Assembly: GCA_036630325.1 (NCBI GenBank)
Contig: CP142737.1
Coordinates: 186,001-250,000, forward strand
Origin: Vairimorpha necatrix
Taxonomy: Eukaryota
Direction of reading: 5' to 3'
DNA: 64,000 nucleotides
This document shows, piece after piece, positions 8,483 through 51,881 of this stretch (position 1 is its first letter; every line of letters starts with the position of its first letter). The notes below the pieces were generated by a model. That model made no database searches. It had not been told where the DNA came from and was given only the letters and a program-made list of their open reading frames with translations. The translations under genes were made by a program, and so were the position numbers.

Positions 8483-8709
8483 TGTGGACTGATGGTTTCC
8501 CATCAGTCCGAGAAGAATGTTTTAAACTAATGTTTTTATTATTCTTCATACCCTTCTGGGTATGATTTTCTTTTATATTTATAGGCGGGAAAAATATTAT
8601 ACATTTTCCCTCCATAAACATAGTTGGGAGAAGGAAGAGAATACTTATAGAATCGTATTCTCTGAGCTCCAGGGCAATCTTAGGACCACTGGAGATCTGT
8701 CACTTGACA
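8483..8709 (-). repeat. 3' LTR of element 1
   Basis: Direct repeat of 10681-10907, adjacent to the PPT. Confidence 0.95.
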
Positions 8710-8731
8710 CTCCCCCCTTCTTTAAAGCCTC

Positions 8732-10747
8732 CTAGGTTCCCATTTGACGACACATCTTAAAGTACTTGCAGTAAATAGTGACTGCGTCCTTATTTAGGTT
8801 ATATGAATTATAGGCTCGCTTTATTTTGGCTACAGGGGTAATATATGACTTTCCCCTTTTATCAATCACTTTCTTCTTGAGGTTTATCGGCGGGTTTCGC
8901 CTTTGTATTGTGTTTTGTAGTTTATGAACACCTAATTTCTCATTTTTTATAACTATTCCTGTTTCCTCTCCTGGTTTAATCATCGTGTAAATGATATGTG
9001 TGTAGTGAGGCACTTCTAAACCTTCGTCGTAATTTTTACGCCATCCATTTATCATAAAATTAAAATTGAATGGTATATTTCTAAGCCCAGGGGGTACACT
9101 ACGCCCGTGAACATTTTTTATTAGTCCGTTATATGGCGACTGTTCTCTGTATTTCTCCCAGGTACTTATCTGACGATGCCTTAAATTCAAGCCCCATCTT
9201 ATACATTCAGGTGGATCATGTAATTCTTCAATGTAAGGAGTTGGGTAACCAACTTGTTTTTTAATTATGTAAAGTTTTCCCGGGTTCACATATATTCCTT
9301 TGTCCCTGAAAAATCCTTTGTCTAAAGCAATCGGGATAGTACCCGTCGAACAAGTTTCTCCAGTATGGGTTTCTTTCACCAGCTCTACGGGCTTGACTCT
9401 TATCGCTTCATTTTGACTTATTAGTCTTCTATGTTGAATGTTCTTTAATGCTGTAAGATCCTTTGGCACTTTCAAATCTATGCTACGATGTACACTTGAG
9501 CTTTGGTCTTTAATATGGAATGTTATAGAAGGTTTTATATCAAGTTTATTACTTTGTTCTTTTTCTTCTTGAACTAAATTCTCTCCGCCCATTTCTGTTA
9601 TATACGTGTCTGGTTTTTTCACCATAGTTGTACAGACAGATTTCTTTGTTCTGTCATATTCCATTTTATCGAGACTTTTTAGTAGATTTAGTTTCTTGGT
9701 ATCTTGTATGCCAATGATGAAGTTTTCCGGTAATTTCTCTTTTACATGAGCCTCGATCTTTAATTTTTTCTTGATCTTTGGCTTTTTGATAAAAACTTGT
9801 GTTTTCCCTTCTGCTTCAACCTGGTCTCCTTTTCTATCTACCTTAAGCGTATCTATTATTGGTTTTAATTCCAATTTCTGAATCATTGTTTTACTTTTAA
9901 GATTCACTCGAGATCCGGTATCATTAAGAGCGGATATTTGTGTTGTTCCCGAATATAAATTTATCCTCGGGCGGATATCTTGTAATTGAGTAGTATTTTT
10001 TTCTTTCCCCAACTTTAAAAGCTTGGCAGAATATACTTGTTCTGCCTTTTGACCAATGAGTTTATTATTTTTCCTTTCTCGTTTAGTGGCTTCATATGTT
10101 GGTTTCCTACTAAGTGTTTTCTTTTTGTTTAAATAGTTATTTATAAAAGTTTGTTTGTTCTCAACTAATTCCAGCAATTCCAACCAATCTTTCGTTTCTT
10201 CAATAGACTCCTTCAACCTATCAGGGGAGTTCTTTCCTATAGAAATCTTTGATCTGGCAAAATATTCAGGGTTTCCTTTTGCACATCTTTTGAGGTCGTA
10301 AGCGTAACTTAAAATGTCGCCTTCTTTTGGACCCTCCACGTATAGATGTATGAACCTATCAGTTATATCTTCTGCTAGTTTTTCTTTTAAATACTTTTTT
10401 TTAAACTGGGTTTTGAATGAATCATAGTCTGTAATTTCATCACCCTCGAACGCTCTGAACCATGTTAACGCCTTGCCTTTAAGTTTAGATTTGGCAATAT
10501 CTAGCGTTTTCTCTTGCGTATACACGTCCTCAATTTCGCGGAACTGAGTTAAAAAATCTTCGGCTTGTTTTGGATTTTCGCCGTTAAATTCTGTCCACCT
10601 CTTGCTCAGACATATTTTCTTCATGTGAGTGATAAGACTATTTAGGTGATCGTTCAAATCCTCGTCACCGTTACCACCATTGTGGACTGATGGTTTCCCA
10701 TCAGTCCGAGAAGAATGTTTTAAACTAATGTTTTTATTATTCTTCAT
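8732..10747 (-). CDS. Gag (retrotransposon capsid) plus protease-like and degenerate RT-like segments
   Basis: N-terminus aligns by eye with Gag of 46702..50538 (LKGKALTWFRA vs LKGKAELWFRA; SAKLLK; RPR). ALNDTGS is protease-like. No YxDD, RNase H or integrase motifs. The ORF is open from 10819, but ATG 10747 follows CCC/GGG and is conserved in the solo LTR. Confidence 0.8.
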   Translation of the reverse strand: MKNNKNISLKHSSRTDGKPSVHNGGNGDEDLNDHLNSLITHMKKICLSKRWTEFNGENPKQAEDFLTQFREIEDVYTQEKTLDIAKSKLKGKALTWFRAFEGDEITDYDSFKTQFKKKYLKEKLAEDITDRFIHLYVEGPKEGDILSYAYDLKRCAKGNPEYFARSKISIGKNSPDRLKESIEETKDWLELLELVENKQTFINNYLNKKKTLSRKPTYEATKRERKNNKLIGQKAEQVYSAKLLKLGKEKNTTQLQDIRPRINLYSGTTQISALNDTGSRVNLKSKTMIQKLELKPIIDTLKVDRKGDQVEAEGKTQVFIKKPKIKKKLKIEAHVKEKLPENFIIGIQDTKKLNLLKSLDKMEYDRTKKSVCTTMVKKPDTYITEMGGENLVQEEKEQSNKLDIKPSITFHIKDQSSSVHRSIDLKVPKDLTALKNIQHRRLISQNEAIRVKPVELVKETHTGETCSTGTIPIALDKGFFRDKGIYVNPGKLYIIKKQVGYPTPYIEELHDPPECIRWGLNLRHRQISTWEKYREQSPYNGLIKNVHGRSVPPGLRNIPFNFNFMINGWRKNYDEGLEVPHYTHIIYTMIKPGEETGIVIKNEKLGVHKLQNTIQRRNPPINLKKKVIDKRGKSYITPVAKIKRAYNSYNLNKDAVTIYCKYFKMCRQMGT

Positions 10748-10907
10748 ACCCTTCTGGGTATGATTTTCTTTTATATTTATAGGCGGGAAAAATATTATAC
10801 ATTTTCCCTCCATAAACATAGTTGGGAGAAGGAAGAGAATACTTATAGAATCGTATTCTCTGAGCTCCAGGGCAATCTTAGGACCACTGGAGATCTGTCA
10901 CTTGACA
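10681..10907 (-). repeat. 5' LTR of element 1
   Basis: Direct repeat of 8483-8709, followed on the minus strand by a TGG-starting PBS. Confidence 0.95.
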
Positions 10908-20094: not shown

Positions 20095-22142
20095 TTTTAG
20101 GGCGAAAATAGAAATTATTAAATAATAAAATATTATTAACGACAATATATATTAAATTGCGAAAGATGTTATATACACTAAAATCAAGATTTTATCGTTG
20201 TTGCCTAAATTTTTATAAACACGTCACATTGCGCAATATTTTTTTGATTTTTTTAGAAAGTATTGCAGAACAAAGATATGTTTATAATATGTTCTAAAAT
20301 TTTTATTTAATGACGTCTTTTCTGTAAATACATATTAAAGAATGTATTTTTTGTATAATGATAATAGAGATATACGACTTTATAATCTTTAAATTCACAT
20401 ATTAATTAAATAATATAATAAATCACCGAAAAATGACATTTATTATATTTACAATGATTAATTCAACAAATAAGTTTTTATAACATATATAATTGTCGTG
20501 TATAGTTAATAAAGTGTCAATTAATTACTATCCATACTGAATATTTAGTTTTACATTTATTATATACGAAAATATCAAAAAATTATGTTTTTACTTTAAA
20601 TGGTTTATTAATGGTACTTTTCAGATAGAACAGCATCTAAGATGCGCCTATTATATTTTAAATCAATTGTTTTAAAGTTAAAATCAATATTATTTTGATG
20701 TATTTTCATTCTTGAATTAACTTTCCATTCCTCAATTCATAATTTGCGCCTTTTATCAGCGTTAAAGAAACACGAAATAACTCTATAGGAGCTATATTTA
20801 AAATACAGTCTACTATTTTATACAGTTTGGCTACTAGTAGCATCCATAGATCTGGGCTTAGTGAGGTCGTAGTTAGAATATTCAATGGAATTAAAATAAC
20901 ATAGAAGAATAGTCCCCACACCGTAGCTAAAAACTTAAACATTCATTTGACATTGCCATGCAGGTCTTCGAGGTTACTAGTTAACTAGAGCCCGAATAAT
21001 GCCTTACCAAGGCTTTCACAGCTATGGGCGTTTGTCGTTTCGATCTATAATTGTCATGCCTTCTTACGACAGTATTATAATTCACAATTCTTTTAGACTT
21101 ATAAAACTTATGATACGACATTGACAAATATAATGGGGCAATTCTGTTAATACCTTATAAATTGTAGCCATCAGAATAAATGCCATACAAAACAGAAAAT
21201 TGCGCATTAGATTCCGCTCCATGAACTCTACCTTTATTCTATAATCTATGTTTCGGTATATTTAAATTTCGAAAACATCCATAATTTTTAGCAGATGGCT
21301 CATCTACTTTTCTAACTATTTTAATTATTACTATACCCAATTTTTAATTCATATAATACGAAACCTTACCCTTAATGAACATTTTAAGATAAATTATCGA
21401 TTGCTTAAAACAAAACAATGCAGAAAGATACTATAATGGGATGTAAATAAATGTCTTTATATAGAAAACTCCCAAATATTGCTGTGCTTATATTAAGCTA
21501 ACAACTTCCACAACATAATATAAACATAAATATTTTTTATTTATGATTTATGAGCTATCTATAATTTTTTCTGTTCTAAGTGTATATTTATAAACTTAGA
21601 TTCAAAAAAGTATGATAGCTTGATGCAGATTGGCCTTTAGTTACCCGATTTATATAAAAATTATACATAAACAAAACAGATGAGACATTATATATTTTTT
21701 GGCACGGAATACTCGAGCTATTGCACATCTTAGCCTTTCTATTCAATGTTTTTTATTTTTTGTAACTTTGAGTTAGTATAAACCATGCTTTGAATCCACA
21801 AGTTTCGAAGATCGTCCTCAAATTCCTAACTGTAAGATTCTTTCTCTACAGTATTTGCTACATCGAAATCTCTGTTAAAGGCTTTGTGCGCCATAAATTT
21901 TGGCTACAGCAGAATTCGTTATAGTTTGTAACATATAGCTTCCAGGCATTTCAACAACAAATATAACTATAGAGCATGCGAATATTTTGTAGGGCAGAGG
22001 TGGGCAAATACTTTAAAGCTGTGGGCCAAAATGAATTTTTTAAAATGTCTCCCGGGCCGGAGGACTATTTCGGCTTTGCTTTACACAAGCGGAAATTTTG
22101 GATGAAGTTTTTTCCCTGCCCATTTTTAACAAAAATATTAAG

Positions 22143-25100
22143 TGTATTTATTTATCATAATTGGGGATCAAAAATATAAGAATATATAACATCCCCCCTC
22201 CAAGACGGTTAGTCTCCTACATCACCATTAACCCCAAGCAGATTTTTCAAGTCATAATGTCTCTTTTTAACATATCGCCCATTAGATAGCTTCACAACAT
22301 ACGAGTCCCCAGGGCATATCACCATTATAATACCTTCGTCTAAAAACCTTTCCTTTTCATATTTATTACATCCTTTGATGTTTTCTTTCTTAGCTATCCT
22401 TACTCGTTGTTACTCAATAAACCGCTCTCTTTTTCTTCTAACAAATCTTTTACTGTAGTCTCCTTCTGGTCCATTTAATATCATCACCTTCCCCGTATTG
22501 TCTTTTACCGCTTCATTATGAGTACTTCTTATACCTTCATGGTAACTATTATTATAAATTTTAAAGCTTTCCATCACTATGTCTTCAAAACTCGCCGTCT
22601 CTTTACTCATTTTCAATATTAGTTCTCTAAGCGTTCCTATAACTCTTTCAACTCTACCATTGCTTCTATGAGACTCGACACTTACCTTATTATGGGTAAT
22701 ATCCAATTTTCTACACAAATCCTTAAAGTCAACATTATCAAATTCCTTCCCATATCCGTTATTATTTCCTTCGGCCTCCTGCCATTTCTACATAAGTTCT
22801 CAATAAACTGGGCCACAGAGGATCTCTTCTTATCGTATAATACACATCCCCACGCTATCCTCGTATGGTAATCTATCGCAACTAATACATATTTGCCCTC
22901 ATCTCTAAAATCAATTAAATCTAACGCTACTTTTTCTAAATACCTGCTTGTAGCAACAAAATCACATCCTCCAGACTTTTTCCTATTGTAAATTTGACAC
23001 TCCTCGCATATTTTTATCATTTTCACTATATCTTCTTTTATTCCTGGCCAATAATAATAAAACTTCATGGCATAATACATGCTTCCTAGTCCTCTGTTTC
23101 CATGCTCTTCATGATAACGAATCATAAGCTCATCTCTTTCTTTTATTTTAGGAATCAATGCTTTCCTCCCCGAATCAAAATTCCAGTATTCTTTACCGTC
23201 TATTGTCTCGACGTGCTTCAACCATTTACCTTCAATTTGACGCTCACTTCTTTTTTTTATCATTTCTTTTCTTGGATCAACCTCCATGTGTATCCTACTC
23301 AAAGCATCCGCCACGACCATATGTTCTGGTTTCCTGTAATCTATTTCAAAGTCAAATTCTTGGATCTTTTCAATCCATCGATTAATTCTATTATTATTAA
23401 AACACGGCTTTCTTCTTATTTCCGCCAATGCTTTGTGATCCGTTTCTACTTAAATTTTCGTCCTCTTAACTCATACTCAAATTTCTTTATTCCCCAATAT
23501 ATGGCATACATTTCCTTTTCACTTATACCATATCTAGTTTCTGTCGGGGTGAATTTCTTCAATGCCCATTGTACTGCCATCCACTCTTCTTTATCATTCT
23601 TCTGCATGAGTACTACGCCCATTCCTATATTGCTCGCGTCAGTTCTTAATAAAAATCCCTTGTCATAGTTTACAATTTTCAATTTACTTATACTTCTCAA
23701 CGCTTCCTTCAAATTTTCGAACTCTTTATTAAGGTCATCAGTCCAATTCAGCACTTTACTTTTACCTTTCAAGCTTTCAGTCATATATAATGTCTTCTAC
23801 GCATAATTCTTAATAAATCCTCGAAACCATCCACTCAGTCCTAAAAATCTTCTTATGTCAGACACATTCTGCGGCGTTGGAAACTCTAGTGCTTCGTTTT
23901 TCTTGATTTCAGACGGCATCATATCATCTCCGTTTATATAACTCCCAATAACTTTACTTCCTTTTGGCAATACTGAATTTTCTTTGAATTTATCCGCATA
24001 ATATTCCGTTCTAACAATTTCATCGCTTCTACAAATAATTTATCATGTTCTTTTCTAGTCTTCGCATGAATCACTATATCATCCATGTATACTTCTATTT
24101 TACCACCCAAATGTTTTTCATAAATCTTATTCATAATTCTCTGCATGATCTGAGGCGAGTTTTTAAACTCCATGACCATACTATTCCACTCATATACTAT
24201 CTTATCATATTCAAATGCAGTCTTATGCTTGTCTTGCTCTTCTATTTCAATTCCAATAAAAGCCTCCTTAAGGTCTATAACACTGAAAAATTTCGATCCT
24301 TGCGTGTTCCAAATGATATCCCTAATGTTCACTAATTCATAAGGGTCTTTCTCCACTAAATCATTTAATGCCATGAGATTGCTAACCAGTCTTATACTTC
24401 CATCTGGCTTAACTGAAGCTTTAATCGGATTTCTCCATTCCGACGTCGATCTTCTTATGACATTCCTTGTCTCTAACCTCTGAATATATTTTCTCAGCTC
24501 TTCTTTATGCGCTTGTGGCACCTGCTGACCTTTCCTTACAACTTTCTTACCTTCTTCAGTTCTGATTCTGCATTTTTCAATTTTACAATATCTTATTTTC
24601 TCTTCTTCGTTGTCTATAACGTTCCTAAACCTCTTTCTCATGTCTTCTAATGTTAGACCGTTCTTTTCTACCTCATCATAACATCTTTTATTTCATGTCT
24701 TCCATTCTTGTTTCTTTTGTCTTTTAGCATCCCATGTGTTCCTATAAGTCCTTTCGCCACAGCTACTGCTACCTTCTTCTTTAATACTCTCACATTCATC
24801 TTTATTCTTAACATTCTTATATCTATAATAACACATCTGACTCTTATGTCCCATTCTTGAACAATTATAACATCTCATTGTTCTTCTCTTCTCAAATATT
24901 CTTTCCTCTCTACTAATATTTCTAATCTCCTCTGCCACCATCTTTGTGACCTCCTCAATCATCCGTAATCTCATATCCTTTTCCTCCTGTACTTTAACCA
25001 ATTCCTCTAATTTGGTTTCCAAAACTTTCCAATGATCTCCAATCTTAATATTCTTAACCATAAATTCTTTCAACTCATCAGTTCCAAGATCATAAATCTC

Positions 25101-25283
25101 CTTCTTTACATTTTTCTCAAAATCATAATCAGACAATACTAATCCATAAACAATCCTCTTAAACTCTTCTAATAACCTTCTGGCCTCTTGACCACAGCCA
25201 ACACTTGTTAACTCACGATTCGGTATCGCCCCCATGTATTTATTTATCATAATTGCGGATCAAAAATATAAGAATATATAACA
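22143..25283 (-). mobile_element. Ty3/gypsy LTR retrotransposon with 49-bp LTRs (element 2), decayed
   Basis: 49-bp TG...CA repeats at 22143-22191 and 25235-25283 (1 mismatch). TSD TTAAG (22138-22142, 25284-25288). PPT GGAGGGGGGA (22192-22201, minus). PBS TGGGGGCGATACCG (25221-25234, minus). Confidence 0.92.
22209..25250 (-). pseudogene. gag-pol of element 2 (Gag-CCHC, RT, RNase H, integrase), broken by stops and frameshifts
   Basis: CYNCSRMGHKSQMC zinc knuckle, RT FSVIDLKEAF/YMDD, RNase H RTDASN, integrase zinc finger (HEEHG..CEEC), LDLID, ITDMG, SNGRVERVI. Gypsy order RT-RH-INT. Confidence 0.9.
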
Positions 25284-25482
25284 TTAAGTATCATTTCAAT
25301 TAGAATAAAATATGTCAAGTACCTTTTAAGGAAATATTATTATAAATAAATGGCTATTAGATAAACCACACAATAAAAGGTTTTATTTTGTTACTTATTT
25401 ATGTCTTAAAGATATTAATTATTTTATATTGACACATGGTTATTACAATTTAACATTTATATTGCATCTCTATATAATAGTA

Positions 25483-27043
25483 CCGGGTTTTCCGGGTTAA
25501 GAGATCCACCCCAAAAGTCGAATTTTGCGACTTTTTAAAAAGAAATTATTATACTAGTGTAAGCGATCCACCCCCAGCCAAATGGTAAAAAAATTATATT
25601 AGAAAAAATGAACCCTTTATTGTAATAAATATTTAAATTTCTATAAAATCTTCAAACAAATTTTCACAGTCTAGGCCTTCGTCTTCAATTTCAGCACAAT
25701 TAAGAACATCTTGAAGTTTATTGTTTAAATTAAAAGTATTGTTTTCATGAAAAATTGAATCTGTTCCACACAATCTAAAAGCCTTAGAAGCCATTTCGGG
25801 AGTTGTTTTTTTTAATGCATCCGCTATTGAATTCAAAATATATTTTAAGCTCGGTCTACGCCTATAACCTTTATTTGTATATTCCTTTGGCCCGTTTGCA
25901 AGCCATTCCTGCCATTTTCTTTTTAATTCGGCCTTAAATGAAGAATTTATCAAAACATCCAATGGTTGTAAATAAGACGTAGTTTGGGGTGGGGGGAATT
26001 AAAACGGTTTCAATGTTATTATTAGCAAAACTTTCCATAACTTTTTCAGTATAGTGAGATTTATAGGTGTCAGGAATAAGAAGTTTTTTTTTTCTATTTT
26101 CAAATGGCCCATATTTGTTTAAACATGCACGAATCCATAATAACATCAGATTTTGATCCATGTTCCCTGATTCAGATGTAACTACAAAAAGATTATTTGG
26201 CACAAAGCATTTTGGCGGGTTTTTAAGGCGTTTTAAAATGGCCATTCCCCTTAAAACAGTACCTTCTGAAGAAATAGTAATAACGACGGAAATTTTAGTC
26301 TTAAGATTTCCAGTTGTATATGCCTCAGTGTTTTTTTCGCCGGTAAATGATAATGTCCGCGATTGCATCATATTATTGTAAACAGGAGTTTCATCCATAT
26401 TATACACCACTGTTTGGCTGTCCATACAGTTAAATTTATGATTAAAGGCTTCAAAATAATTCAACACGGTTTCTTTAATCTTCTGAGGCCTTCTGTTGTC
26501 TTCCTGTCCAAAAGATGTTATTTTTCTAAATGAAAAATGATTTCTTCTTTTGAACCCCATCAACCAACTCATACTTGCCTTAAAATCTGTAATGGACAAC
26601 TTCTCTGCTATTTCAAAAGCCTTATCTCTAATATTATAAGTTGAGATAATTCGCTTCTTTTCACCTCGCTCTACCTTCACCCAATCCACCAACATTTTTT
26701 CAAGAGGAGGCCATTTGGCAGAAGTACCGGCACGCATTCTTTTAATATTTTTAATGTTGCTTTGGCCTAACATTTTAACTTCGGCCTTTTTTCCAATCAC
26801 GAAGCATTTTCCTAGTAATCTGCAACTCTAGAGCAGTCATACTTAAATTTCCATTGTTTTCCCGCAATCTTTGTAATCCTGCTAATTTTTCTTTTAGAGT
26901 GTAAGATTTCATTTTCATGGAGGTAAATTTAGAAAAAAAATTTAAAAGATATTTCAAATATTTTATATCCTTATAAGAGATCATCCCAAATAAGAGACCA
27001 CGGATCTCTTATATGGGTGGATCTCTTAACCCGGAAACCCCGG
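25483..27043 (-). mobile_element. pogo/Tigger-family (Tc1/mariner superfamily) DNA transposon
   Basis: 29-bp TIRs CCGGGTTTTCCGGGTTAAGAGATCCACCC / GGGTGGATCTCTTAACCCGGAAACCCCGG (1 mismatch), with TA on both flanks (25481-82, 27044-45). Confidence 0.92.
25633..26984 (-). pseudogene. pogo-type transposase (CENP-B-like HTH plus DDE_1), two frameshifts
   Basis: SYTLKEKL..HTH, FKASMSWLMGFKRR, NMDETP, PDTYKSH, (L)QPLDV across a frameshift, KAFRLCG. Confidence 0.88.
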
Positions 27044-27094
27044 TAAAAAAATTCAAAAAAGAAAAAAAAACATCAAACGTTAAAATATTTAATG

Positions 27095-44387: not shown

Positions 44388-45099
44388 AATAAATTTATCA
44401 AAATGGTGTCGCATTTACACTTAAATGTATTTATGATATTAAGTCGTCGACATTTCTACAGTGTAACAAATTTTCATCATTAAAGCAGTGTCGAATTTAC
44501 ACTAAAATGTATTTAGGAAAACACACTGTTGACTTTTTACAGTGTTCCCCTTTGATAAATTTGACCAAGCTTATAAAACACAAGTGTTTACAATAATTTT
44601 GGGAGATCCTAAAACATTCCATATTAGCACGACAAAGTATTAAAAATTTGAAGTATTTGCATTCTGTGATTACTTTTAGTCAAGTCAATGAATTTTATAC
44701 ACTTGAGTATTTAATAGAAAATGTCTTTTTCAAGATTAATTGTTTTACATTATCTTTGCTTAATACTTCTGACTAGTACTTATCTACGAAATGTAACTAA
44801 TATTTTTCAGTAAGGCAATATAGTAAGTCGACCTTGGTTGGTTAAATCAATATTATTCAATCTTCTTCTTTTTGTCAAACACAAGAATATCAGGCTTATT
44901 GTGGATTAATAGGCACAAATTTAATTTTATCATTAAATCAATACAGGAAGAATTAATTAAAGAATATTTTTCATTATCTTAATACTTTTCTGAAGATTAT
45001 CCCATGTGATCTTAAATGAGAAGTGTAAACTTTGAAATGGATCTTTTTTTGACTTTTTTAAGTTTTACAAATCATCTTCATTTTGACAGGACCATAAAA

Positions 45100-45262
45100 T
45101 TTCATGCTAATTTATTTTTTTCAGAAATTTATGTTTCATGCTAATTTATTTTTTTCAGAAATTTATGTTTCATGCTAATTTAATATTAAATGATTTATGT
45201 TTCTTGGAAATTTATTTTTTTAAATGATTTATGTTTCATGCTAATTTATTTTAGAAATTTAT
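45100..45262. repeat. ~34-bp tandem repeat in the promoter region
   Basis: TTTCATGCTAATTTATTTTTTTCAGAAATTTATG repeated ~4-5 times with decay. Confidence 0.8.
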
Positions 45263-45278
45263 TCATTTTTTTGCCCTT

Positions 45279-45878
45279 ATGACTGGACTTATTAGTCAAG
45301 AAGAAAAAGTCTTCATTTCTTATTACTATGACTGTCTTTGTAATGATACAAACAGATTAACAAAACTCTACAATGATAAATCTATACTAACAATCTCATT
45401 TGAAAATGGTACTACTAGCACAGTATCAGAAGGATTCACTGCTCATTTAAAGCATTCTACTGGTTACCCAGTCTTTAAAGTATTTATTTCAAACATGGTA
45501 TCACAGAAAGTAGACAAAGATTTAATAAATTTAAACATTTTGGGCCAATTCGTATTTTTAAATAAAACTCAGAAAAGATTTAATCATAATTTACTAATAC
45601 AGAAAAATGAAGGAATTTTCTTAATAAAATCTGAGACTATAGTAATTTTAAATGAAGAAATTATTTATGAGAAATCTCAGAAATTTTATACTATGAAAAT
45701 TAGTAATAAAAATAAAAGTATGAGTGAAATAGTCAATGTTTTGGAGAGATTTGGGAAAATAGAAGAGATAAAAATTAAAGATGATAATTTTGAATGTAAA
45801 ATGGATCAATTAGATATTTCACATGAAGATTTATTGGGCAAAATAACGGAAACGGGATTAGTAGTAATTTCTAAATAA
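45279..45878 (+). CDS. NTF2-like domain protein with a C-terminal RRM-like region (G3BP/Bre5-like)
   Basis: VFISYYYDCL..RLTKLY.DKSILT, ILGQF, RFNHNLL (NTF2 fold), and LERFGKIEEIKI (RRM-like). GCCCTT precedes the ATG. Confidence 0.7.
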   Translation: MTGLISQEEKVFISYYYDCLCNDTNRLTKLYNDKSILTISFENGTTSTVSEGFTAHLKHSTGYPVFKVFISNMVSQKVDKDLINLNILGQFVFLNKTQKRFNHNLLIQKNEGIFLIKSETIVILNEEIIYEKSQKFYTMKISNKNKSMSEIVNVLERFGKIEEIKIKDDNFECKMDQLDISHEDLLGKITETGLVVISK

Positions 45879-45975
45879 ATTTTTAACTCAAAAATATAAA
45901 TTTATAAATCAAAAATATAATAGATTTGTAAGTTAAAAATATAAATTTCAATATAAATATAAATTTGTAATATAA

Positions 45976-46075
45976 ATTTATAAATCTATTATATTATTAC
46001 ATTTATAAATCTATTATATTTTTACATTTATAAATCTAATATATTATTACATTTATAAATCTATTATATTTTTTT
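45976..46075. repeat. 25-bp tandem repeat
   Basis: ATTTATAAATCTATTATATTATTAC x~4. Confidence 0.8.
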
Positions 46076-46441: not shown

Positions 46442-46701
46442 TGTCAGGCTGCAGACCTGCACTGACGATACGGCTTCCAGTTAAACAATAATAATTGGAC
46501 CTGTCAAACATCTCGAAGTAGTGTAAACAAACATTGAACATTTGACATGCACAAACTAAAAGTAGGAAAAGTGCATGCCACATGAAGTACTACTACTTTA
46601 GTAGAACTTTGGTTTCTTGTTTGTTTGTTTACATCTCAAAGAGTTTGACAGTTAATCTAATTAACTATTTAAACGGAATTTACCCCTAACACACAATTCC
46701 G

Positions 46702-49700
46702 ATGAGCAACAAAAAAGATAACAACTCAAATAAATATGTTAACTTAGACTCACCCTCTTCTACTTCGGATCAGGCTACATACCGGATCACAAATGGCGAC
46801 AACGAAGAGATTTGTAAAGAAGAAAATATGGATTCAATACTCTTAAAATTAAAAAATTTAATGTCAATGGAAAAGTGGATAACTTTTCAAGGACTAAAAA
46901 CTGAAGATCCAAAGACATTTTTAGGGCAATTCTTAGAATATGAGAAGCAATGGCCTCAGAGCACCCTATATGCAAAAGCGACTTCAATGCTTAAGGGAAA
47001 AGCCGAACTATGGTTTAGAGCGAACGAAGAATCGATGCTCACATATAAGCAATTTGTTGAAAATTTTAAACGTAATTTTATTAAAAGAGAATCAGAAATA
47101 GATAAAACTGAAAAATTCTGGGACCTAATCAGGGAAGGCCCAATTCATCCAGATATGCTGTCATACAGTTACAGCCTACATATATACGCTGGACAATCAG
47201 AATCCTTATTTAAAAGAAGTAAAGAGAAACTCAGAGATTTATTAGATGACGAATACCTTCGCGATGGTATAGAAAGATGTCATGATTGGAACGAGTTAGA
47301 GGAATACATAAAGTTAAAAGAAGAAAGATTAAACAAAAAAATTCGAATCTTCTATAAAAAACAATATAAAAATAAAAACGAATATAAAAATAAAAATGAA
47401 TATAAAAATAAAAATGAATATAAAAGTAGTGAAAGAAAAATAGACTACAGGGGTAACGAGACAAGAGTCAGCCCCGATTCAAAGCCTTATAAAAAAGAAT
47501 TATTTAAAAAGAATGAGCAAAAGAAAGCTCTAATTATCTCGGCAAAACTACTAAAAGTAAATGATCGAAGACCAAGAGTAAAATTAAATTTTGAAGATCA
47601 AGTTATAGTAGCATTATTGGACTCCGGGGCTAACGCATCAGTTATACGTAGAAAAGAAGCGGAAGAGCTGAGTGATGAAATTCTAAAGGAAAAAGGAGAA
47701 ATAAAAGGTTTTAATGGAACAAGCAGAGTGATAGGCTCATGTAAACTTAAAATAAAACCAAATAATCGCTCAGGAGCGGAAACAATTACCTTATTAGTGG
47801 TGAATGATATGGAGGAAGCAATAATTTTTGGAATAGAAGAAATCGAAAAATTAAATATGATAGACTATATTCCAATTAATCAAAAGAAAGTCGGTAAAAA
47901 AAGATCAATACCTAAGAAAAAAAGGATTGTATTAAACGCGGAAGTTACTACAAAGAAGGAAGATAGTAACACGGATTTGAATGAATTAATTAAGAACATC
48001 AAATGTGAAAACACACTGTTAAGAAAGAAGTATACACACACTCTTGAAAAATATACTAAACTATTCTCTGATGATAATTCTTTAAATAATATCGAGATCG
48101 AACACGCGATCGAATTAATAAATGGAGCTACTATGTCTCCATGCCCAAAGTATAAAAGATCCCCGGAAGAACACAAGATCATCCGAGAAGAAGTTAAGAA
48201 ATTCATTGAAAAGGGCATAATTGAGGAGAGTGAAAGTCAATATATATCACCAGTGGTACTAGTAAAAAAAAAGGATGGAGGTATTAGGTTTTGTATAGAC
48301 TTCCGACGATTGAATAAAATAACAATACCATATGAATATCCGATACCAAGGATTGATGAGACCCTGGATCAACTACAAGGGGCTAAAATATTCAGCACAA
48401 TGGACGTTGAATCGGCTTATAACCAGATATCTGTAAGGCAAGAAGATAGATTTAAGACTGCTTTCTACACACGAGAAGGAATCTATCAATGGAGAAAAAT
48501 GCCTTTCGGGTTAATTAATGCACCCTTTACATTTCAAAAGATCATGAATAAATACTTTGCGAAATATATGCACAAATTTGTAACAATATACTTAGATGAT
48601 ATTTTAGTATATTCAAACGATCATGATAGCCATCTACAACATTTAGAGACTATTCTGAGTATAATTAAGAAGGTAGGGCTGAAACTAAACAAGAAAAAAT
48701 GTCAATTTGTACAGGAAAGTGTGGAATTTCTTGGATTTAGTGTGTGCAACGGAGAGATTTCAATACCATTGCAGCAAAAGATGCGTTCAATCAATTGGCC
48801 CGAACCGAAGACAAAAAGAGATGTCAGGGCATTCAATGGATATTCTTCATTTTTTAGCAAGTTTATTAATAATTACGCAGATAAAATGAATCCATTATAC
48901 GATACGATTAAGGGAGCTAAAAATTCAAAACTGAAAATGACAGAAGAAGCTTTGCAAGCATTTAATAATATGAAAAAAGAAATCGCCAATGCATCTGGCT
49001 TGAAACTACCAGATTTTAGAAAGAAATTTTACTTATATACAGATGCATCGAATTTGGCATTGGGAGCAGTATTACAACAAGAAGATGAACATGGAGAATT
49101 GAGACCCATTATATGCATCTCAAGAACTTTGAGCCCAGCAGAAATTAACTACACGGTAACAGAAAAGGAGTGCCTAGGTGTAGTATGGGGAGTTAAAAAA
49201 CTACGAGTTTATCTGACACAACAGTTCATAATAAGGACAGATCATCAAGCATTAAAATGGCTACTAAATCTAAAAGAGACTACAGGTAGACTAATGAGAT
49301 GGATATTGACCTTACAAGAGTATAAATATATAATTGAATACATACCTGGAGAAGAAAATGTAATGGCCGATGCACTCAGTAGAATTGTGATGATAGCATC
49401 AAATACTCAAGAAGAGGAAAAGCTATCCGCCGACGAGAAGGTTCGAGTAATACTAAAAAGTCATCACGAGTGCGGACATGGCGGTGTTGATGCAACATAC
49501 GTACTCACATTGAGAGAAAAAAAATGGAAAGGCATGTATAAGGACGTGATCGAAACGATAAGAAGATGTAACATATGTAATCGACATTCACGTGGGGCCA
49601 CTAATTTACAGAAAATCAGACTTCCACTGATGAATCCCCTGGATAGAATAGGGATAGACCTAGTAGGTCCTCTACCGAAAAGTTATAATGGAAATAGATA

Positions 49701-50538
49701 CGTAGTAATCGCAACGGATTATGTAACTAGATGGTGCGAAGCAGAAGCGATAAAATCTAAATCTACAAATGTAATTGCTTTATTTATACTAAAGAAGATA
49801 ATTTGCCAACATGGACCCCCTAAGGAAATATTGTCTGATCAAGGGACGGAATTCACGAGTAGATTAATAAAAACTATATGTGGCATGATGAATTGTAAGA
49901 AATCGTTTACTTCAAGTTACAACCCGAAATGTAATGGGTTGGCAGAGCGCACTAATCAAACCTTGATAGGTAAACTAGCTAAATTAGTTGATGGTAGGTG
50001 GAAACAGTGGGATGAATACCTCCCCTATGCGATATTTGCTTACCGAATATCTCCAAGAAAACAATCTAAAAGGTCACCGTATGAACTTTTATATGGGAGA
50101 TTACCAAATTCGTTTTTAGAGGCTAAGATAGATGATAACATCCTTGAAGATAATGGCCTTATAGTCGAGAGATTAAACGAATTTCGGAAACTAATGATAA
50201 ATGAAGAAAAAGAAATACGTGCAAAAGAAATAACAAAGGTTAAAAAAGGTAGAAGCCCTGACGATATTGAAGAAAATGATTACGTAAGAAGGAAAAAACT
50301 GTTAACTGAAAAAGAGAATAAGTTAGATGCAAACTTTGATGGAATCTATAAAGTCATAAAAAAAGGGAAGAATGGAAACTATGAAATTGAAGGTTTAAAT
50401 GGAATGCGATACTCAGTGAATCGAAAAGACTTAATGAAAATTGAAGAGTCAGATCCAATAGATTGGATTCTTTCGAAGGAGGGGAGAGTGTCAGGCTGCA
50501 GACCTGCACTGACGATACGGCTTCCAGTTAAACAATAA
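46702..50538 (+). CDS. Gag-Pol polyprotein (Gag, protease, RT, RNase H, integrase)
   Basis: LLDSGA protease, RFCIDFRRLN, MPFGL, YLDD, TDASN RNase H, HHECGH..CNIC, IDLVGP, SDQGTEF, NGLAERTN. Single uninterrupted frame. Confidence 0.97.
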   Translation: MSNKKDNNSNKYVNLDSPSSTSDQATYRITNGDNEEICKEENMDSILLKLKNLMSMEKWITFQGLKTEDPKTFLGQFLEYEKQWPQSTLYAKATSMLKGKAELWFRANEESMLTYKQFVENFKRNFIKRESEIDKTEKFWDLIREGPIHPDMLSYSYSLHIYAGQSESLFKRSKEKLRDLLDDEYLRDGIERCHDWNELEEYIKLKEERLNKKIRIFYKKQYKNKNEYKNKNEYKNKNEYKSSERKIDYRGNETRVSPDSKPYKKELFKKNEQKKALIISAKLLKVNDRRPRVKLNFEDQVIVALLDSGANASVIRRKEAEELSDEILKEKGEIKGFNGTSRVIGSCKLKIKPNNRSGAETITLLVVNDMEEAIIFGIEEIEKLNMIDYIPINQKKVGKKRSIPKKKRIVLNAEVTTKKEDSNTDLNELIKNIKCENTLLRKKYTHTLEKYTKLFSDDNSLNNIEIEHAIELINGATMSPCPKYKRSPEEHKIIREEVKKFIEKGIIEESESQYISPVVLVKKKDGGIRFCIDFRRLNKITIPYEYPIPRIDETLDQLQGAKIFSTMDVESAYNQISVRQEDRFKTAFYTREGIYQWRKMPFGLINAPFTFQKIMNKYFAKYMHKFVTIYLDDILVYSNDHDSHLQHLETILSIIKKVGLKLNKKKCQFVQESVEFLGFSVCNGEISIPLQQKMRSINWPEPKTKRDVRAFNGYSSFFSKFINNYADKMNPLYDTIKGAKNSKLKMTEEALQAFNNMKKEIANASGLKLPDFRKKFYLYTDASNLALGAVLQQEDEHGELRPIICISRTLSPAEINYTVTEKECLGVVWGVKKLRVYLTQQFIIRTDHQALKWLLNLKETTGRLMRWILTLQEYKYIIEYIPGEENVMADALSRIVMIASNTQEEEKLSADEKVRVILKSHHECGHGGVDATYVLTLREKKWKGMYKDVIETIRRCNICNRHSRGATNLQKIRLPLMNPLDRIGIDLVGPLPKSYNGNRYVVIATDYVTRWCEAEAIKSKSTNVIALFILKKIICQHGPPKEILSDQGTEFTSRLIKTICGMMNCKKSFTSSYNPKCNGLAERTNQTLIGKLAKLVDGRWKQWDEYLPYAIFAYRISPRKQSKRSPYELLYGRLPNSFLEAKIDDNILEDNGLIVERLNEFRKLMINEEKEIRAKEITKVKKGRSPDDIEENDYVRRKKLLTEKENKLDANFDGIYKVIKKGKNGNYEIEGLNGMRYSVNRKDLMKIEESDPIDWILSKEGRVSGCRPALTIRLPVKQ
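47364..47424 (+). repeat. 18-bp tandem repeat in gag (YKNKNE)
   Basis: ATATAAAAATAAAAA(C/T)GA x3.5. Confidence 0.85.
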
Positions 50539-51881
50539 TAATTGGACCTGTCAAACATCTCGAAGTAGTGTAAACAAACATTGAACATTTGACATGCACA
50601 AACTAAAAGTAGGAAAAGTGCATGCCACATGAAGTACTACTACTTTAGTAGAACTTTGGTTTCTTGTTTGTTTGTTTATATCTCAAAGAGTTTGACAGTT
50701 AATCTAATTAACTATTTAAACGGAATTTACCCCTAACACACAATTCCGATGAGCAACAAAAAAGATAACAACTCAAATAAATATGTTAACTTAGACTCAC
50801 CCTCTTCTACTTCGGATCAGGCTACATGCCGGATCACAGAGAGTGTAATAAGGCGACTCAATAAAACATAAGAAAAAATAAATAATTTAAAGTAAAATGA
50901 AACGTGTAAATAGTTAGACATTACTTGTCCATTATGTGTATCAACGTGCACAACTTTGATACTTTTTACATAACACTTATAGTCCATGAGATTCATCAAA
51001 TGACTTATTTTCTGGGGATGTTTGAATTTGAGAGTCGTTTAAATTTTGGCAATCAAAATTCATGTGATTTATTATTACGTCATTACGCGGGGGATTGAAT
51101 AAGCACTGAGAAAATTGAAGGGCAATTTAACACAATCTCATCTTGCCATAAATTAGGATGCACAAATTAATCAAGTCCATGCGACGAGAACCGTTGTATT
51201 TAAGCGAAAAAGATAAACGGGTATTCTTGAAGTTGATTTATGAAACTTGTGTGGAGAGCAACCTCCTGGGTTTTCAAAAAGTCGTAAATTAGTGCCACTC
51301 TAGTAATTGCAGTAATTCTATGAGAAAAGGCCCTGGCTTTTATTTTTTAGACGGGCTTCTTCGAGATAAATAGACCAAGTAAAGAAAAGCTTTCTTGGCC
51401 TAATTGATTGGGATTCTGTAACACGGTGGACGAAATTAGTGTGAGACTACGTATAAATAAGCCCATAAAATTAAATATGTAGGTAAAGATTATAGTGCCT
51501 ATATTTGTATTGTATAATAAAGTCTCTCTTTCAGACTCTATTATCATGCTTAATAATCATATTGGCTATAACTTTTTTAACAAGCCTATGGTAATTGTTC
51601 TTTTGAGCAATGTCAAATGAATACGGCGGAGCTTGCTGCACTCAAAACTTTTTAAAGTAGTAGAATAAATAATATTCGCACTTGTTTGAACTTCTGTACA
51701 ACCTAATGAAGGGTTCTTCTTGTCCTTTAAAGTAAATTCATTCTTACACTTTTTTTTATGTTTTTTAATTTTTTAAGGTTTATATACTTTTAATTAGTTT
51801 GTTTCTTTGAACAAACAAACTGTTTTATTCATGCATAAAAACTATAAAAAGACACAATTTGCATAAAATATTGATTTTTTA

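What the first reader, a model, noticed from the sequence alone, without database searches (positions are those of the whole stretch)
22143..25283. Gypsy retrotransposon with ultra-short 49-bp LTRs that look like a minimal host promoter plus terminator
Seen: a gag-RT-RH-INT element bounded by 49-bp repeats, minus strand TGTTATATATTCTTATATTTTTGATCC(C/G)CAATTATGATAAATAAATACA. They have TG..CA ends, an exact TTAAG TSD, a PBS abutting the 5' copy and a PPT abutting the 3' copy, so these are the true LTRs. Each holds an AT/TATA-rich stretch, a CCC-like motif, the gag ATG and AATAAA; the 3' copy has CCCC and the 5' copy has CCGC. Known: LTRs of coding Ty3/gypsy elements are usually hundreds of bp, and common LTR finders default to minima around 100 bp. 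Inference: this may be an overlooked miniaturised LTR family made possible by the very short microsporidian promoters and UTRs.
Basis: partly seen in the sequence, partly recalled or inferred. Interest (0 to 1): 0.85.

Follow-up and report, generated by a model that had tools for sequence, protein, structure and literature searches.

The report
Microsporidian gypsy retrotransposon with 49-bp LTRs
This is a broken copy of a very small jumping gene in a microsporidian parasite whose end repeats really are only 49 bases long, roughly half the shortest such repeats I found in print, and relatives in other microsporidia have equally tiny ends.

Summary
Window 22143-25283 (minus strand, 3141 bp) is a Ty3/gypsy-type LTR retrotransposon. 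It is bounded by 49-bp TG..CA repeats (48/49 identical) and a TTAAG duplication. A TGG-starting primer-binding-like site abuts the 5' copy and a purine tract abuts the 3' copy.

A contig from an independent sequencing run joins the two flanks and skips exactly 3146 bp (element plus one duplication). That fixes the ends and excludes misassembly.

It is not a one-off. A metagenomic sister element has 39-bp LTRs with its own 5-bp duplication. Other relatives show 38-, 47- and 49-bp LTR ends. Sixteen relatives of about 1000 aa sit on contigs of 3.03-3.28 kb. More distant microsporidian relatives have 58-, 75- and about 175-bp LTRs.

The LTR carries a T-rich stretch, a CCC motif and an ATG, which matches the published microsporidian core-promoter pattern, plus AATAAA. 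That these work as promoter and terminator is inferred; no RNA data were available.

- This copy is dead: three frame changes and three in-frame stops.
- The clade has no protease and no recognisable capsid fold.
- Two other LTR elements in the window have 227- and 350-bp LTRs.

Prior description could not be excluded, because the key 2006 paper and supplements were unreadable.

The parts
22138..22142 (.). Target-site duplication TTAAG (plus strand), on the element's 3' side
   Evidence: The empty-site contig keeps one copy.
22143..22191 (-). 3' LTR, 49 bp, TGTT...ACA. Holds a T-rich stretch, CCCC (positions 26-29), ATG (34-36) and AATAAA (40-45).
22192..22216 (-). Polypurine tract GGAGGGGGGA (22192-22201) inside a non-coding block (GACTA.CCGTCT..GG.GGGGA) that is conserved in four lineages
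22212..23449 (-). Integrase region: H2C2 zinc-binding domain, rve core and C-terminal part. It is split over three pieces (22685-23449, 22413-22787, 22212-22409) by a frame change and a TAA at 22410-22412. The final stop is at 22209-22211.
   Evidence: Sister contigs have one more letter at 22752 and other letters at 22411-22413.
23449..23796 (-). RNase H domain (RT_RNaseH_2 / RT_RNaseH). It ends at a frame change at 23449.
   Evidence: Sister contigs have one more letter at 23449.
23800..24692 (-). Reverse transcriptase (RVT_1 at about 23940-24410) and its connection. There is a frame change near 23937-24039 and an in-frame TAG at 23797-23799.
24693..24695 (-). In-frame TGA between the gag-like part and RT. 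Full-length relatives read straight through here.
24696..25250 (-). Gag-like ORF (185 aa): four predicted helices and a CCHC zinc knuckle (24831-24872). Its first ATG lies inside the 5' LTR. The second Met codon (25233-25235) spans the LTR end and the first bases of the PBS-like site.
   Evidence: No capsid fold match.
25217..25234 (-). Primer-binding-site-like sequence TGGGGGCGATACCGAATC, directly after the 5' LTR. It is translated as part of the ORF (MGAIPNR).
   Evidence: The same peptide occurs in the best named relative. The primer tRNA was not identified.
25235..25283 (-). 5' LTR, 49 bp, with CCGC instead of CCCC at positions 26-29
25284..25288 (.). Target-site duplication TTAAG, on the element's 5' side

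Best explanation
This is a dead copy of a compact (3.1 kb) microsporidian Ty3/gypsy-type LTR retrotransposon family whose LTRs are genuinely only 38-49 bp.

Shown:
- The element is a discrete 3141-bp insertion with TG..CA ends and a 5-bp duplication.
- One long reading frame starts inside the 5' LTR and runs through the PBS-like site. It encodes a helical CCHC protein, then RT, RNase H and integrase. It stops 17 nt before the purine tract and the 3' LTR.
- Relatives in other microsporidia have the same plan and equally short LTRs.

Inferred:
- The first ~30 nt of the LTR (T-rich/AAATTT-like stretch plus CCC motif) act as a host-style core promoter.
- Transcription would start a few nt before the ATG, at about LTR position 28-33. 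That leaves U3 of about 27-32 nt and an R(+U5) of about 16-21 nt.
- AATAAA in the 3' LTR directs polyadenylation in or just beyond the LTR.
- A tRNA primed at the TGG site makes a very short strong-stop DNA, which transfers through this short R.
- Integrase makes the 5-bp duplication.

The clade has no aspartic protease and no recognisable capsid. Its polyprotein therefore either works unprocessed or borrows a protease from other gypsy families, such as the protease-bearing 350-bp-LTR element in this window.

Confidence is about 0.9 for the structural part and about 0.5 for the promoter/terminator mechanism.
For: Ends. An empty-site contig skips 3146 bp.

Family.
- L003 has 39-bp LTRs with a TTATA duplication.
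- A 49-bp LTR is seen at the L005 3' end, and in reverse at L001/L002 next to TGGCACCC.
- L006 and L008 show 38- and 47-bp ends.
- The junctions GGGGA|TGTT and ACA|TGG are invariant in the 4+4 aligned ends.
- Sixteen of the 85 longer relatives are 976-1039 aa on 3035-3283-bp contigs. In 15 of them the contig exceeds the ORF by only 25-163 bp.
- The second Met, at the LTR/PBS junction, is conserved in at least 90% of 14 full-length relatives.

Sister copies 97-99% alike sit in two runs from two studies.

More distant microsporidian elements with intact ORFs have 58-bp (L020, 1088 aa) and 75-bp (L030, 1153 aa, protease significant) identical LTRs.

Signals.
- AATAAA occurs in 7 of 7 LTR lineages. 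The chance per LTR is 0.03-0.26.
- CC[CG] lies within 8 nt upstream of an ATG in 4 of 7 lineages. The chance per LTR is 0.003-0.036.
- The published microsporidian pattern is a 5'UTR under 7 nt with an AAATTT-like plus CCC-like signal directly upstream of the ATG (PMC2803860, sections 7-8).
- Very short R regions exist in retroviruses: MMTV 11 bp and RSV 21 bp (passage in PMC3601003).

No protease.
- None of 14 relatives hits a retropepsin family at E<=1.
- D[ST]G occurs in the knuckle-to-RT linker in 1 of 14.
- That linker is modelled as disordered.
Against: - No transcript data. No RNA holder was listed, so the start site, the poly(A) site and the size of R are guesses.
- The primer tRNA was not identified.
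- In the window's LTR, AATAAA ends 4 nt before the LTR end. The usual ~20-nt spacing would put cleavage in flanking DNA.
- The order of AATAAA, CCC and ATG differs between lineages.
- The window copy is defective, and its 5' LTR has CCGC in place of CCCC.
- There is only one copy and no solo LTR in the 64-kb window, and no whole genome was available.
- Of the four sister elements with both LTRs on one contig, only L003 shows a duplication. L020, L030 and L026 do not. These are metagenome consensus contigs whose flanks may be chimeric.
- The L006 and L008 LTR lengths rest on one end plus the TGTT/ACA pattern.
- The seven LTR lineages are related, so the chance figures are not independent.
- Two of 14 relatives give a weak Peptidase_A17 hit (E 0.047).
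Confidence: 0.78

Rival explanations
1. The 49-bp repeats are real LTRs, but they serve only as integrase ends plus a repeat for strand transfer. The promoter lies elsewhere: downstream inside the element as in LINEs, or read-through from neighbouring genes, which is common in microsporidia. The resemblance to host promoter signals would then be a by-product of AT-rich sequence.
For: No RNA data exist. Microsporidian transcription overrun and multi-gene transcripts are documented (PMC2803860, abstract and section 7). The motif order varies between lineages, and CC[CG] near an ATG is seen in only 4 of 7.
Against: Anything upstream of the start site in the 5' LTR must be regenerated from the 3' LTR, so an external promoter would not travel with the element. 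AATAAA occurs in 7 of 7 lineages, and T-rich plus CCC directly before the ATG occurs in the window, L005, L030 and L008, well above shuffles. Many lineages keep long intact ORFs, which argues for self-sufficient expression.
Confidence: 0.15
2. This is a one-off deletion derivative of an element with ordinary long LTRs.
For: The copy is degenerate. Other LTR elements in the same window have 227- and 350-bp LTRs.
Against: Sister elements from other organisms have 38-49-bp LTRs with the same junctions. About 1000-aa relatives sit on about 3.1-kb contigs. The N-terminal peptide encoded by the LTR and PBS is conserved. The two long-LTR elements belong to different families: RT identity is 29% for the 350-bp-LTR element, and no segment of the focal element matched the region of the gag-only 227-bp-LTR element (its only Pfam hits are weak gag/capsid ones).
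Confidence: 0.02
3. The structure is an assembly artefact, with a chimeric join creating false terminal repeats.
For: The window copy differs by single-letter length changes from sister contigs at two places. This could be assembly error in the coding part.
Against: Contigs from two independent runs cover the element's interior and both ends at 97-99% likeness, and one contig shows the precise empty site. The duplication, PBS-like site and purine tract are all in register.
Confidence: 0.01

Closest known systems
Microsporidian Ty3/gypsy elements: the Nbr families of Nosema bombycis (Xu et al. 2006) and the microsporidia-specific groups of Parisot et al. 2014
   Same: They share the RT-RH-IN order, a single polyprotein ORF instead of separate gag and pol (passage in PMC4202319), and the host phylum. 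The closest named relatives of this RT are microsporidian: Vairimorpha necatrix 77%, then Nosema granulosis, Enteropsectra and Pseudoloma.
   Different: The texts I could read give no LTR lengths (PMC4202319 section 13 and passages). A secondary summary says nearly all Nbr elements encode Gag, protease, RT, RNase H and integrase (passage in PMC2474625). This clade has no protease. Xu 2006 is not held and supplements are closed, so short LTRs may already be recorded there or in repeat libraries.
Ty3 of Saccharomyces and canonical Ty3/gypsy (Metaviridae) elements
   Same: They share TG..CA LTR ends, a 5-bp target duplication, a tRNA-type PBS starting TGG next to the 5' LTR, a purine tract next to the 3' LTR, and pol order RT-RH-IN.
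   Different: From recall, not from a call: canonical elements are about 5 kb with LTRs of hundreds of bp, a capsid-fold Gag and an aspartic protease. Here the element is 3.1 kb with 49-bp LTRs, no protease and no capsid match.
Shortest LTRs found in print: FRetro129/SMART and FRetro64 of Oryza brachyantha (Gao et al. 2012, PMC3281118, passages read)
   Same: Very short terminal repeats with TGT...ACA ends and a 5-bp duplication. FRetro64 is a coding element.
   Different: FRetro129 has 85-bp repeats and is non-coding (292 bp). FRetro64 is a 5234-bp Ty1/copia element with 76- and 90-bp LTRs. The window element's LTRs are 49 bp (sisters 38-39 bp), in a 3.1-kb Ty3/gypsy-type coding element.
Microsporidian core promoter and 3' signals (Peyretaillade et al. 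2009, PMC2803860)
   Same: The pattern is a T/A-rich AAATTT-like signal followed by a CCC-like motif directly upstream of the ATG, 5'UTRs under 7 nt, and AAUAAA near the stop codon. The window LTR contains TTTTTGATCCC, a string also present in one of the paper's Table 1 entries.
   Different: Those are host-gene signals mapped by RACE in Encephalitozoon cuniculi. Here the same pattern sits inside a mobile element's LTR and has not been mapped.

Membership tests
LTR retrotransposon (general) | Two direct terminal repeats with TG..CA ends, flanked by a short target-site duplication | tested here: met
   49-bp repeats, 48/49 identical, reading TGTT..ACA, with TTAAG on both sides. An empty-site contig skips 3146 bp.
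LTR retrotransposon (general) | Primer-binding site next to the 5' LTR, complementary to a host tRNA 3' end | tested here: inconclusive
   TGG... follows the LTR directly in the window, L003, L002rc, L008, L020, L030 and L026. No tRNA was found in the window or in any locus scanned. A pattern search in two MAGs gave only the site itself and a chance hit in a coding gene.
LTR retrotransposon (general) | Polypurine tract next to the 3' LTR | tested here: met
   GGAGGGGGGA lies directly before TGTT. GGGGA|TGTT is conserved in 4 of 4 aligned 3' ends.
LTR retrotransposon (general) | LTR divided into U3-R-U5, with a transcription start and a poly(A) site inside it | not testable with these tools
   No RNA holder was listed. 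Only sequence motifs are available.
Ty3/gypsy (Metaviridae) | RT, RNase H and integrase homologous to the superfamily, in the order RT-RH-IN | tested here: met
   Pfam RVT_1 1.8e-27, RT_RNaseH_2 4.2e-27 and Integrase_H2C2 2.3e-11, plus a sub-threshold rve match (E 2e-05; 25.2 bits against a 32.6 cut-off), in that order. Fourteen of 14 relatives carry all of these at E<=1.
Ty3/gypsy (Metaviridae) | Aspartic protease between Gag and RT | tested here: not met
   None of 14 relatives hits a retropepsin family at E<=1, though 2 of 14 show weak Peptidase_A17. None of the 51 best longer hits lists a protease Pfam family. D[ST]G occurs in the 52-129-aa linker in 1 of 14. The linker has pLDDT below 50 and no beta domain.
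Ty3/gypsy (Metaviridae) | Gag with a retroviral-type capsid fold | tested here: inconclusive
   The model shows four helices plus CCHC (mean pLDDT 75). Foldseek against the PDB gave no match at E<=0.001. No Pfam gag family was found. The CCHC knuckle is present. A missing match is not proof that the fold differs.

The most novel reading that the evidence does not exclude
A whole clade of microsporidian Ty3/gypsy elements may have compressed the LTR to 38-49 bp by adopting the host's ultra-compact core promoter and poly(A) signal, and may also have lost protease and capsid. If so, these about 3.1-kb elements would be the smallest self-sufficient LTR retrotransposons known. They would replicate with a strong-stop DNA of only about 20 nt, and standard LTR finders would miss them systematically.
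Probability: 0.35. Interest if true: 0.78.

Novelty: new variant of a known kind. Interest (0 to 1): 0.62.

Why it matters
- Detection. LTRharvest's defaults are a 30-nt exact seed and a minimum LTR of 100 bp (Table 1 of PMC2253517). Structure-based annotation with such settings cannot report these elements as LTR retrotransposons. Their ends, ages and solo LTRs will then be missed in microsporidian genomes, where transposons explain much of the genome-size variation.
- Mechanism. A natural 38-49-bp LTR that still holds integrase ends, a start codon and expression signals sets a much lower bound on how small U3, R and U5 can be. It offers a minimal system for testing strand transfer through a very short R.
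- Life cycle. The absence of protease and of a recognisable capsid in an otherwise conserved, often intact polyprotein raises a question. Can an LTR element replicate without particle maturation, or does this clade parasitise the protease of other families?

Tried and rejected
- Source genome.
- Window searches. The 64-kb window holds no further copy of the 49-mer within 3 mismatches and no further copy of the element.
- Primer tRNA. ARAGORN found nothing in the window or in 16 loci. A 13-nt pattern search in two MAGs hit only the site itself and a chance match inside a coding gene.
- RNA. No RNA holder was listed. Runs X3 and X4 laid nothing.
- Depth. In one search the depth peaks at the LTR bins, and short contigs appear to join LTR-proximal pieces. 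Both hint at many copies and deleted derivatives. The tool warns that contig depth is not copy number and that such joints are unreliable, so neither is used as evidence.
- Other collections. The viral-contig scan found no relative.
- Gag. Foldseek against the PDB gave no hit at E<=0.001. The exhaustive search with gag found only 17 proteins at E<=0.001, mostly fragments.
- Flanks. The joined flanks show no inverted-repeat structure.
- Literature. They found no statement of LTRs below 76 bp and none on microsporidian LTR length. Xu et al. 2006 is not held, and Xiang et al. 2010 was seen only as a reference. Supplements are closed, and Parisot et al.'s tables and consensus file may list LTR lengths.
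- Unused tool.
Full report
WHAT IS THERE. On the minus strand, window 22143-25283 is a 3141-bp element bounded by two 49-bp direct repeats (25235-25283 and 22143-22191). They differ at one base: CCGC in the 5' copy, CCCC in the 3' copy. None of 100 shuffles of the window gave two matches to the 49-mer. Each repeat reads TGTT...ACA. TTAAG lies on both sides. TGGGGGCGATACCGAATC follows the 5' copy directly, and GGAGGGGGGA precedes the 3' copy directly.

Between the repeats lie, in order: a 185-aa ORF with a CCHC knuckle, reverse transcriptase, RNase H, and integrase with its zinc-binding domain and core. An A precedes TGTT on both sides. A 50-bp repeat with a 4-bp duplication therefore fits equally well.

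THE ENDS ARE REAL. No whole genome was held. I looked for public runs instead, and two runs from two studies hold parts of the stretch. Laying their contigs on 21600-25800 gave contigs covering the interior and both ends at about 97-99% likeness. Run X2 also yielded a 328-bp contig that joins 22136 to 25283 and skips 3146 bp. That is exactly the element (3141) plus one copy of the duplication (5). It is an empty site, not a solo LTR, which would skip 3092. This fixes the boundaries at the TG and CA of the 49-bp repeats and rules out misassembly.

THE COPY IS DEAD. The reading frame is interrupted by in-frame stops at 24693-24695, 23797-23799 and 22410-22412. It also changes frame near 23937-24039, at 23449 and within 22685-22787. 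Full-length relatives read through the first stop. At 22752 and 23449 the sister contigs differ in length by one letter, and they differ in letters at 22411-22413. At least some of the breaks are therefore private to this copy or to its assembly.

IT IS A FAMILY TRAIT.
- Protein relatives. The RT's relatives are microsporidian: Vairimorpha necatrix 77%, Nosema granulosis, Enteropsectra, Pseudoloma and others. Of the 85 listed longer relatives, 16 are 976-1039 aa on contigs of only 3035-3283 bp. In 15 of these the contig exceeds the ORF plus stop by only 25-163 bp; the sixteenth exceeds it by 261 bp. In the window element the corresponding figure is 99 bp.
- DNA relatives. Relatives were fetched from metagenomes and from MAGs contaminated with microsporidian contigs. 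L003 has two 39-bp repeats (TGTT...ACA, 38/39 identical) 3124 bp apart. It has its own TTATA duplication, TGGCACCC... after the 5' copy and GGCGGGGA before the 3' copy. A 49-bp LTR is seen after the purine tract in L005, and on the other strand in L001/L002 next to TGGCACCCGATG. L006 (3' end) and L008 (5' end) show 38- and 47-bp ends, inferred from one side only.
- Conserved junctions. GGGGA|TGTT and ACA|TGG are invariant in the aligned ends. A non-coding block (GACTA.CCGTCT) upstream of the purine tract is conserved.
- Conserved N-terminus. The N-termini of relatives read M-x-N-K-x-M-G/A. That is the LTR's ATG and AATAAA, followed by the ATG that spans the LTR end and the TGG. The second Met is at least 90% conserved in 14 full-length relatives.

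A CONTINUUM OF SHORT LTRS. Searching the two MAGs with the family alignment gave more distant gypsy contigs:
- L020 has identical 58-bp LTRs, an intact 1088-aa ORF and weak protease hits.
- L030 has identical 75-bp LTRs, an intact 1153-aa ORF and a significant aspartic protease.
- L026 has 172-176-bp LTRs and a 1221-aa ORF.

None of these three shows a matching duplication; they are consensus contigs. The window itself holds two other LTR elements. One is a 4397-bp gypsy element (46442-50838) with 350-bp LTRs, a GAGAG duplication, a 1278-aa ORF including a protease, and an ATG inside its LTR. The other is a 2425-bp element (8483-10907, minus strand) with identical 227-bp LTRs, a GATTA duplication and only a gag-like 695-aa ORF. 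Short host promoters therefore permit tiny LTRs but do not impose them.

NO PROTEASE, NO RECOGNISABLE CAPSID.
- None of the 51 best longer hits lists a protease Pfam family.
- None of 14 full-length relatives hits a retropepsin family at E<=1. Two show a weak Peptidase_A17 hit.
- The 52-129-aa linker between knuckle and RT is unconserved and has D[ST]G in 1 of 14.
- In an AlphaFold model from a 14-sequence alignment (mean pLDDT 72), residues 141-216 fall below pLDDT 50 and form no beta domain.
- The gag-like part models as four helices plus the knuckle. It matches nothing in the PDB at E<=0.001.
- Gag evolves fast: only 17 hits at E<=0.001 among 1.84 billion representatives.

HOW IT LIKELY WORKS (inferred). 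Peyretaillade et al. 2009 (abstract and sections 7-8 read) mapped microsporidian mRNA ends. [quoted passage not shown]

The window LTR reads ...TATATTTTTGATCC(C/G)CAATT-ATG-ATAAATAAATACA. That is this same pattern followed by AATAAA. Across seven LTR lineages AATAAA is present in 7 of 7 (chance 0.03-0.26 each). CC[CG] lies within 8 nt upstream of an ATG in 4 of 7 (chance 0.003-0.036 each). The lineages are related, so these figures are not independent.

The most economical model has four steps:
1. U3 is about 27-32 nt and holds the core promoter.
2. Transcription starts just before the ATG.
3. R(+U5) is about 16-21 nt and runs to the LTR end.
4. Poly(A) is added in or just beyond the 3' LTR.

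A tail of flanking RNA would not disturb first-strand transfer, because the strong-stop DNA anneals to R. R regions of 10-21 bp are documented in Sire, MMTV and RSV (passage in PMC3601003). None of this is shown here. No RNA run was listed and the primer tRNA was not identified.

COMPARISON AND NOVELTY. By RT, RNase H and integrase homology and order, the element belongs with Ty3/gypsy and with the microsporidia-specific single-ORF groups of Parisot et al. 2014 (passages). It departs from the canonical plan in three ways: LTR length, loss of protease, and lack of a recognisable capsid.

The shortest LTRs I found in print are 85 bp in the non-coding FRetro129 and 76/90 bp in the copia element FRetro64 (passages in PMC3281118). 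LTRharvest's default minimum is 100 bp with a 30-nt seed.

Ten full-text searches found no mention of microsporidian LTR lengths. However, the primary Nbr paper is not held, supplements are closed, and repeat libraries could not be consulted. Prior description cannot be excluded. I rate it a new variant of a known kind, of moderate to high interest.

Noticed in passing
window 46442-50838 (+): A second, apparently intact Ty3/gypsy element of a different family (RT 29% identical). It has 350-bp LTRs with 2 mismatches, a GAGAG duplication and a PBS-like TGGCGACAACG after a 2-nt spacer. Its single 1278-aa ORF includes an aspartic protease, starts inside the 5' LTR and ends inside the 3' LTR.
   Followed up: yes
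window 8483-10907 (-): A 2425-bp LTR element with identical 227-bp LTRs (TG..CA), a GATTA duplication, and PBS-like and purine tracts. Its only ORF is 695 aa with weak Retrotrans_gag and Ty3_capsid hits and no RT. It looks like a recently inserted gag-only, non-autonomous element.
   Followed up: partly
window 25449-27077: A pogo/Tc5-like DNA transposon lies 165 bp from the focal element. It has imperfect 63-nt terminal inverted repeats (31-nt core 97% alike) around a 279-aa ORF with HTH_Tnp_Tc5 and a partial DDE_1 domain.
   Followed up: partly
window 21600-25800, contigs of run X1: Short contigs appear to join LTR-proximal pieces while skipping most of the interior (for example 22209 to 23348 and 23401 to 25222). 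These may be miniature deleted derivatives of the family. The sides are only 30-74 nt, and the tool warns that such joints are unreliable.
   Followed up: no
L001 1-61 and L002 1043-1103 (reverse strand): The 5' LTR plus PBS of one family member lies head-to-head against an RNase H fragment and another member. This suggests nested or clustered insertions of these elements in that metagenomic microsporidian.
   Followed up: partly
window 45093-45282 and 45897-46073: AT-rich tandem arrays (periods about 17 and 25 nt) lie just upstream of the 350-bp-LTR element.
   Followed up: no
window 22192-22216 and the matching places in L003, L005, L006: A non-coding block (GACTA.CCGTCT, then the purine tract) between the stop codon and the 3' LTR is conserved across lineages whose LTRs are otherwise unalignable. 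It may be an extended plus-strand primer signal.
   Followed up: partly
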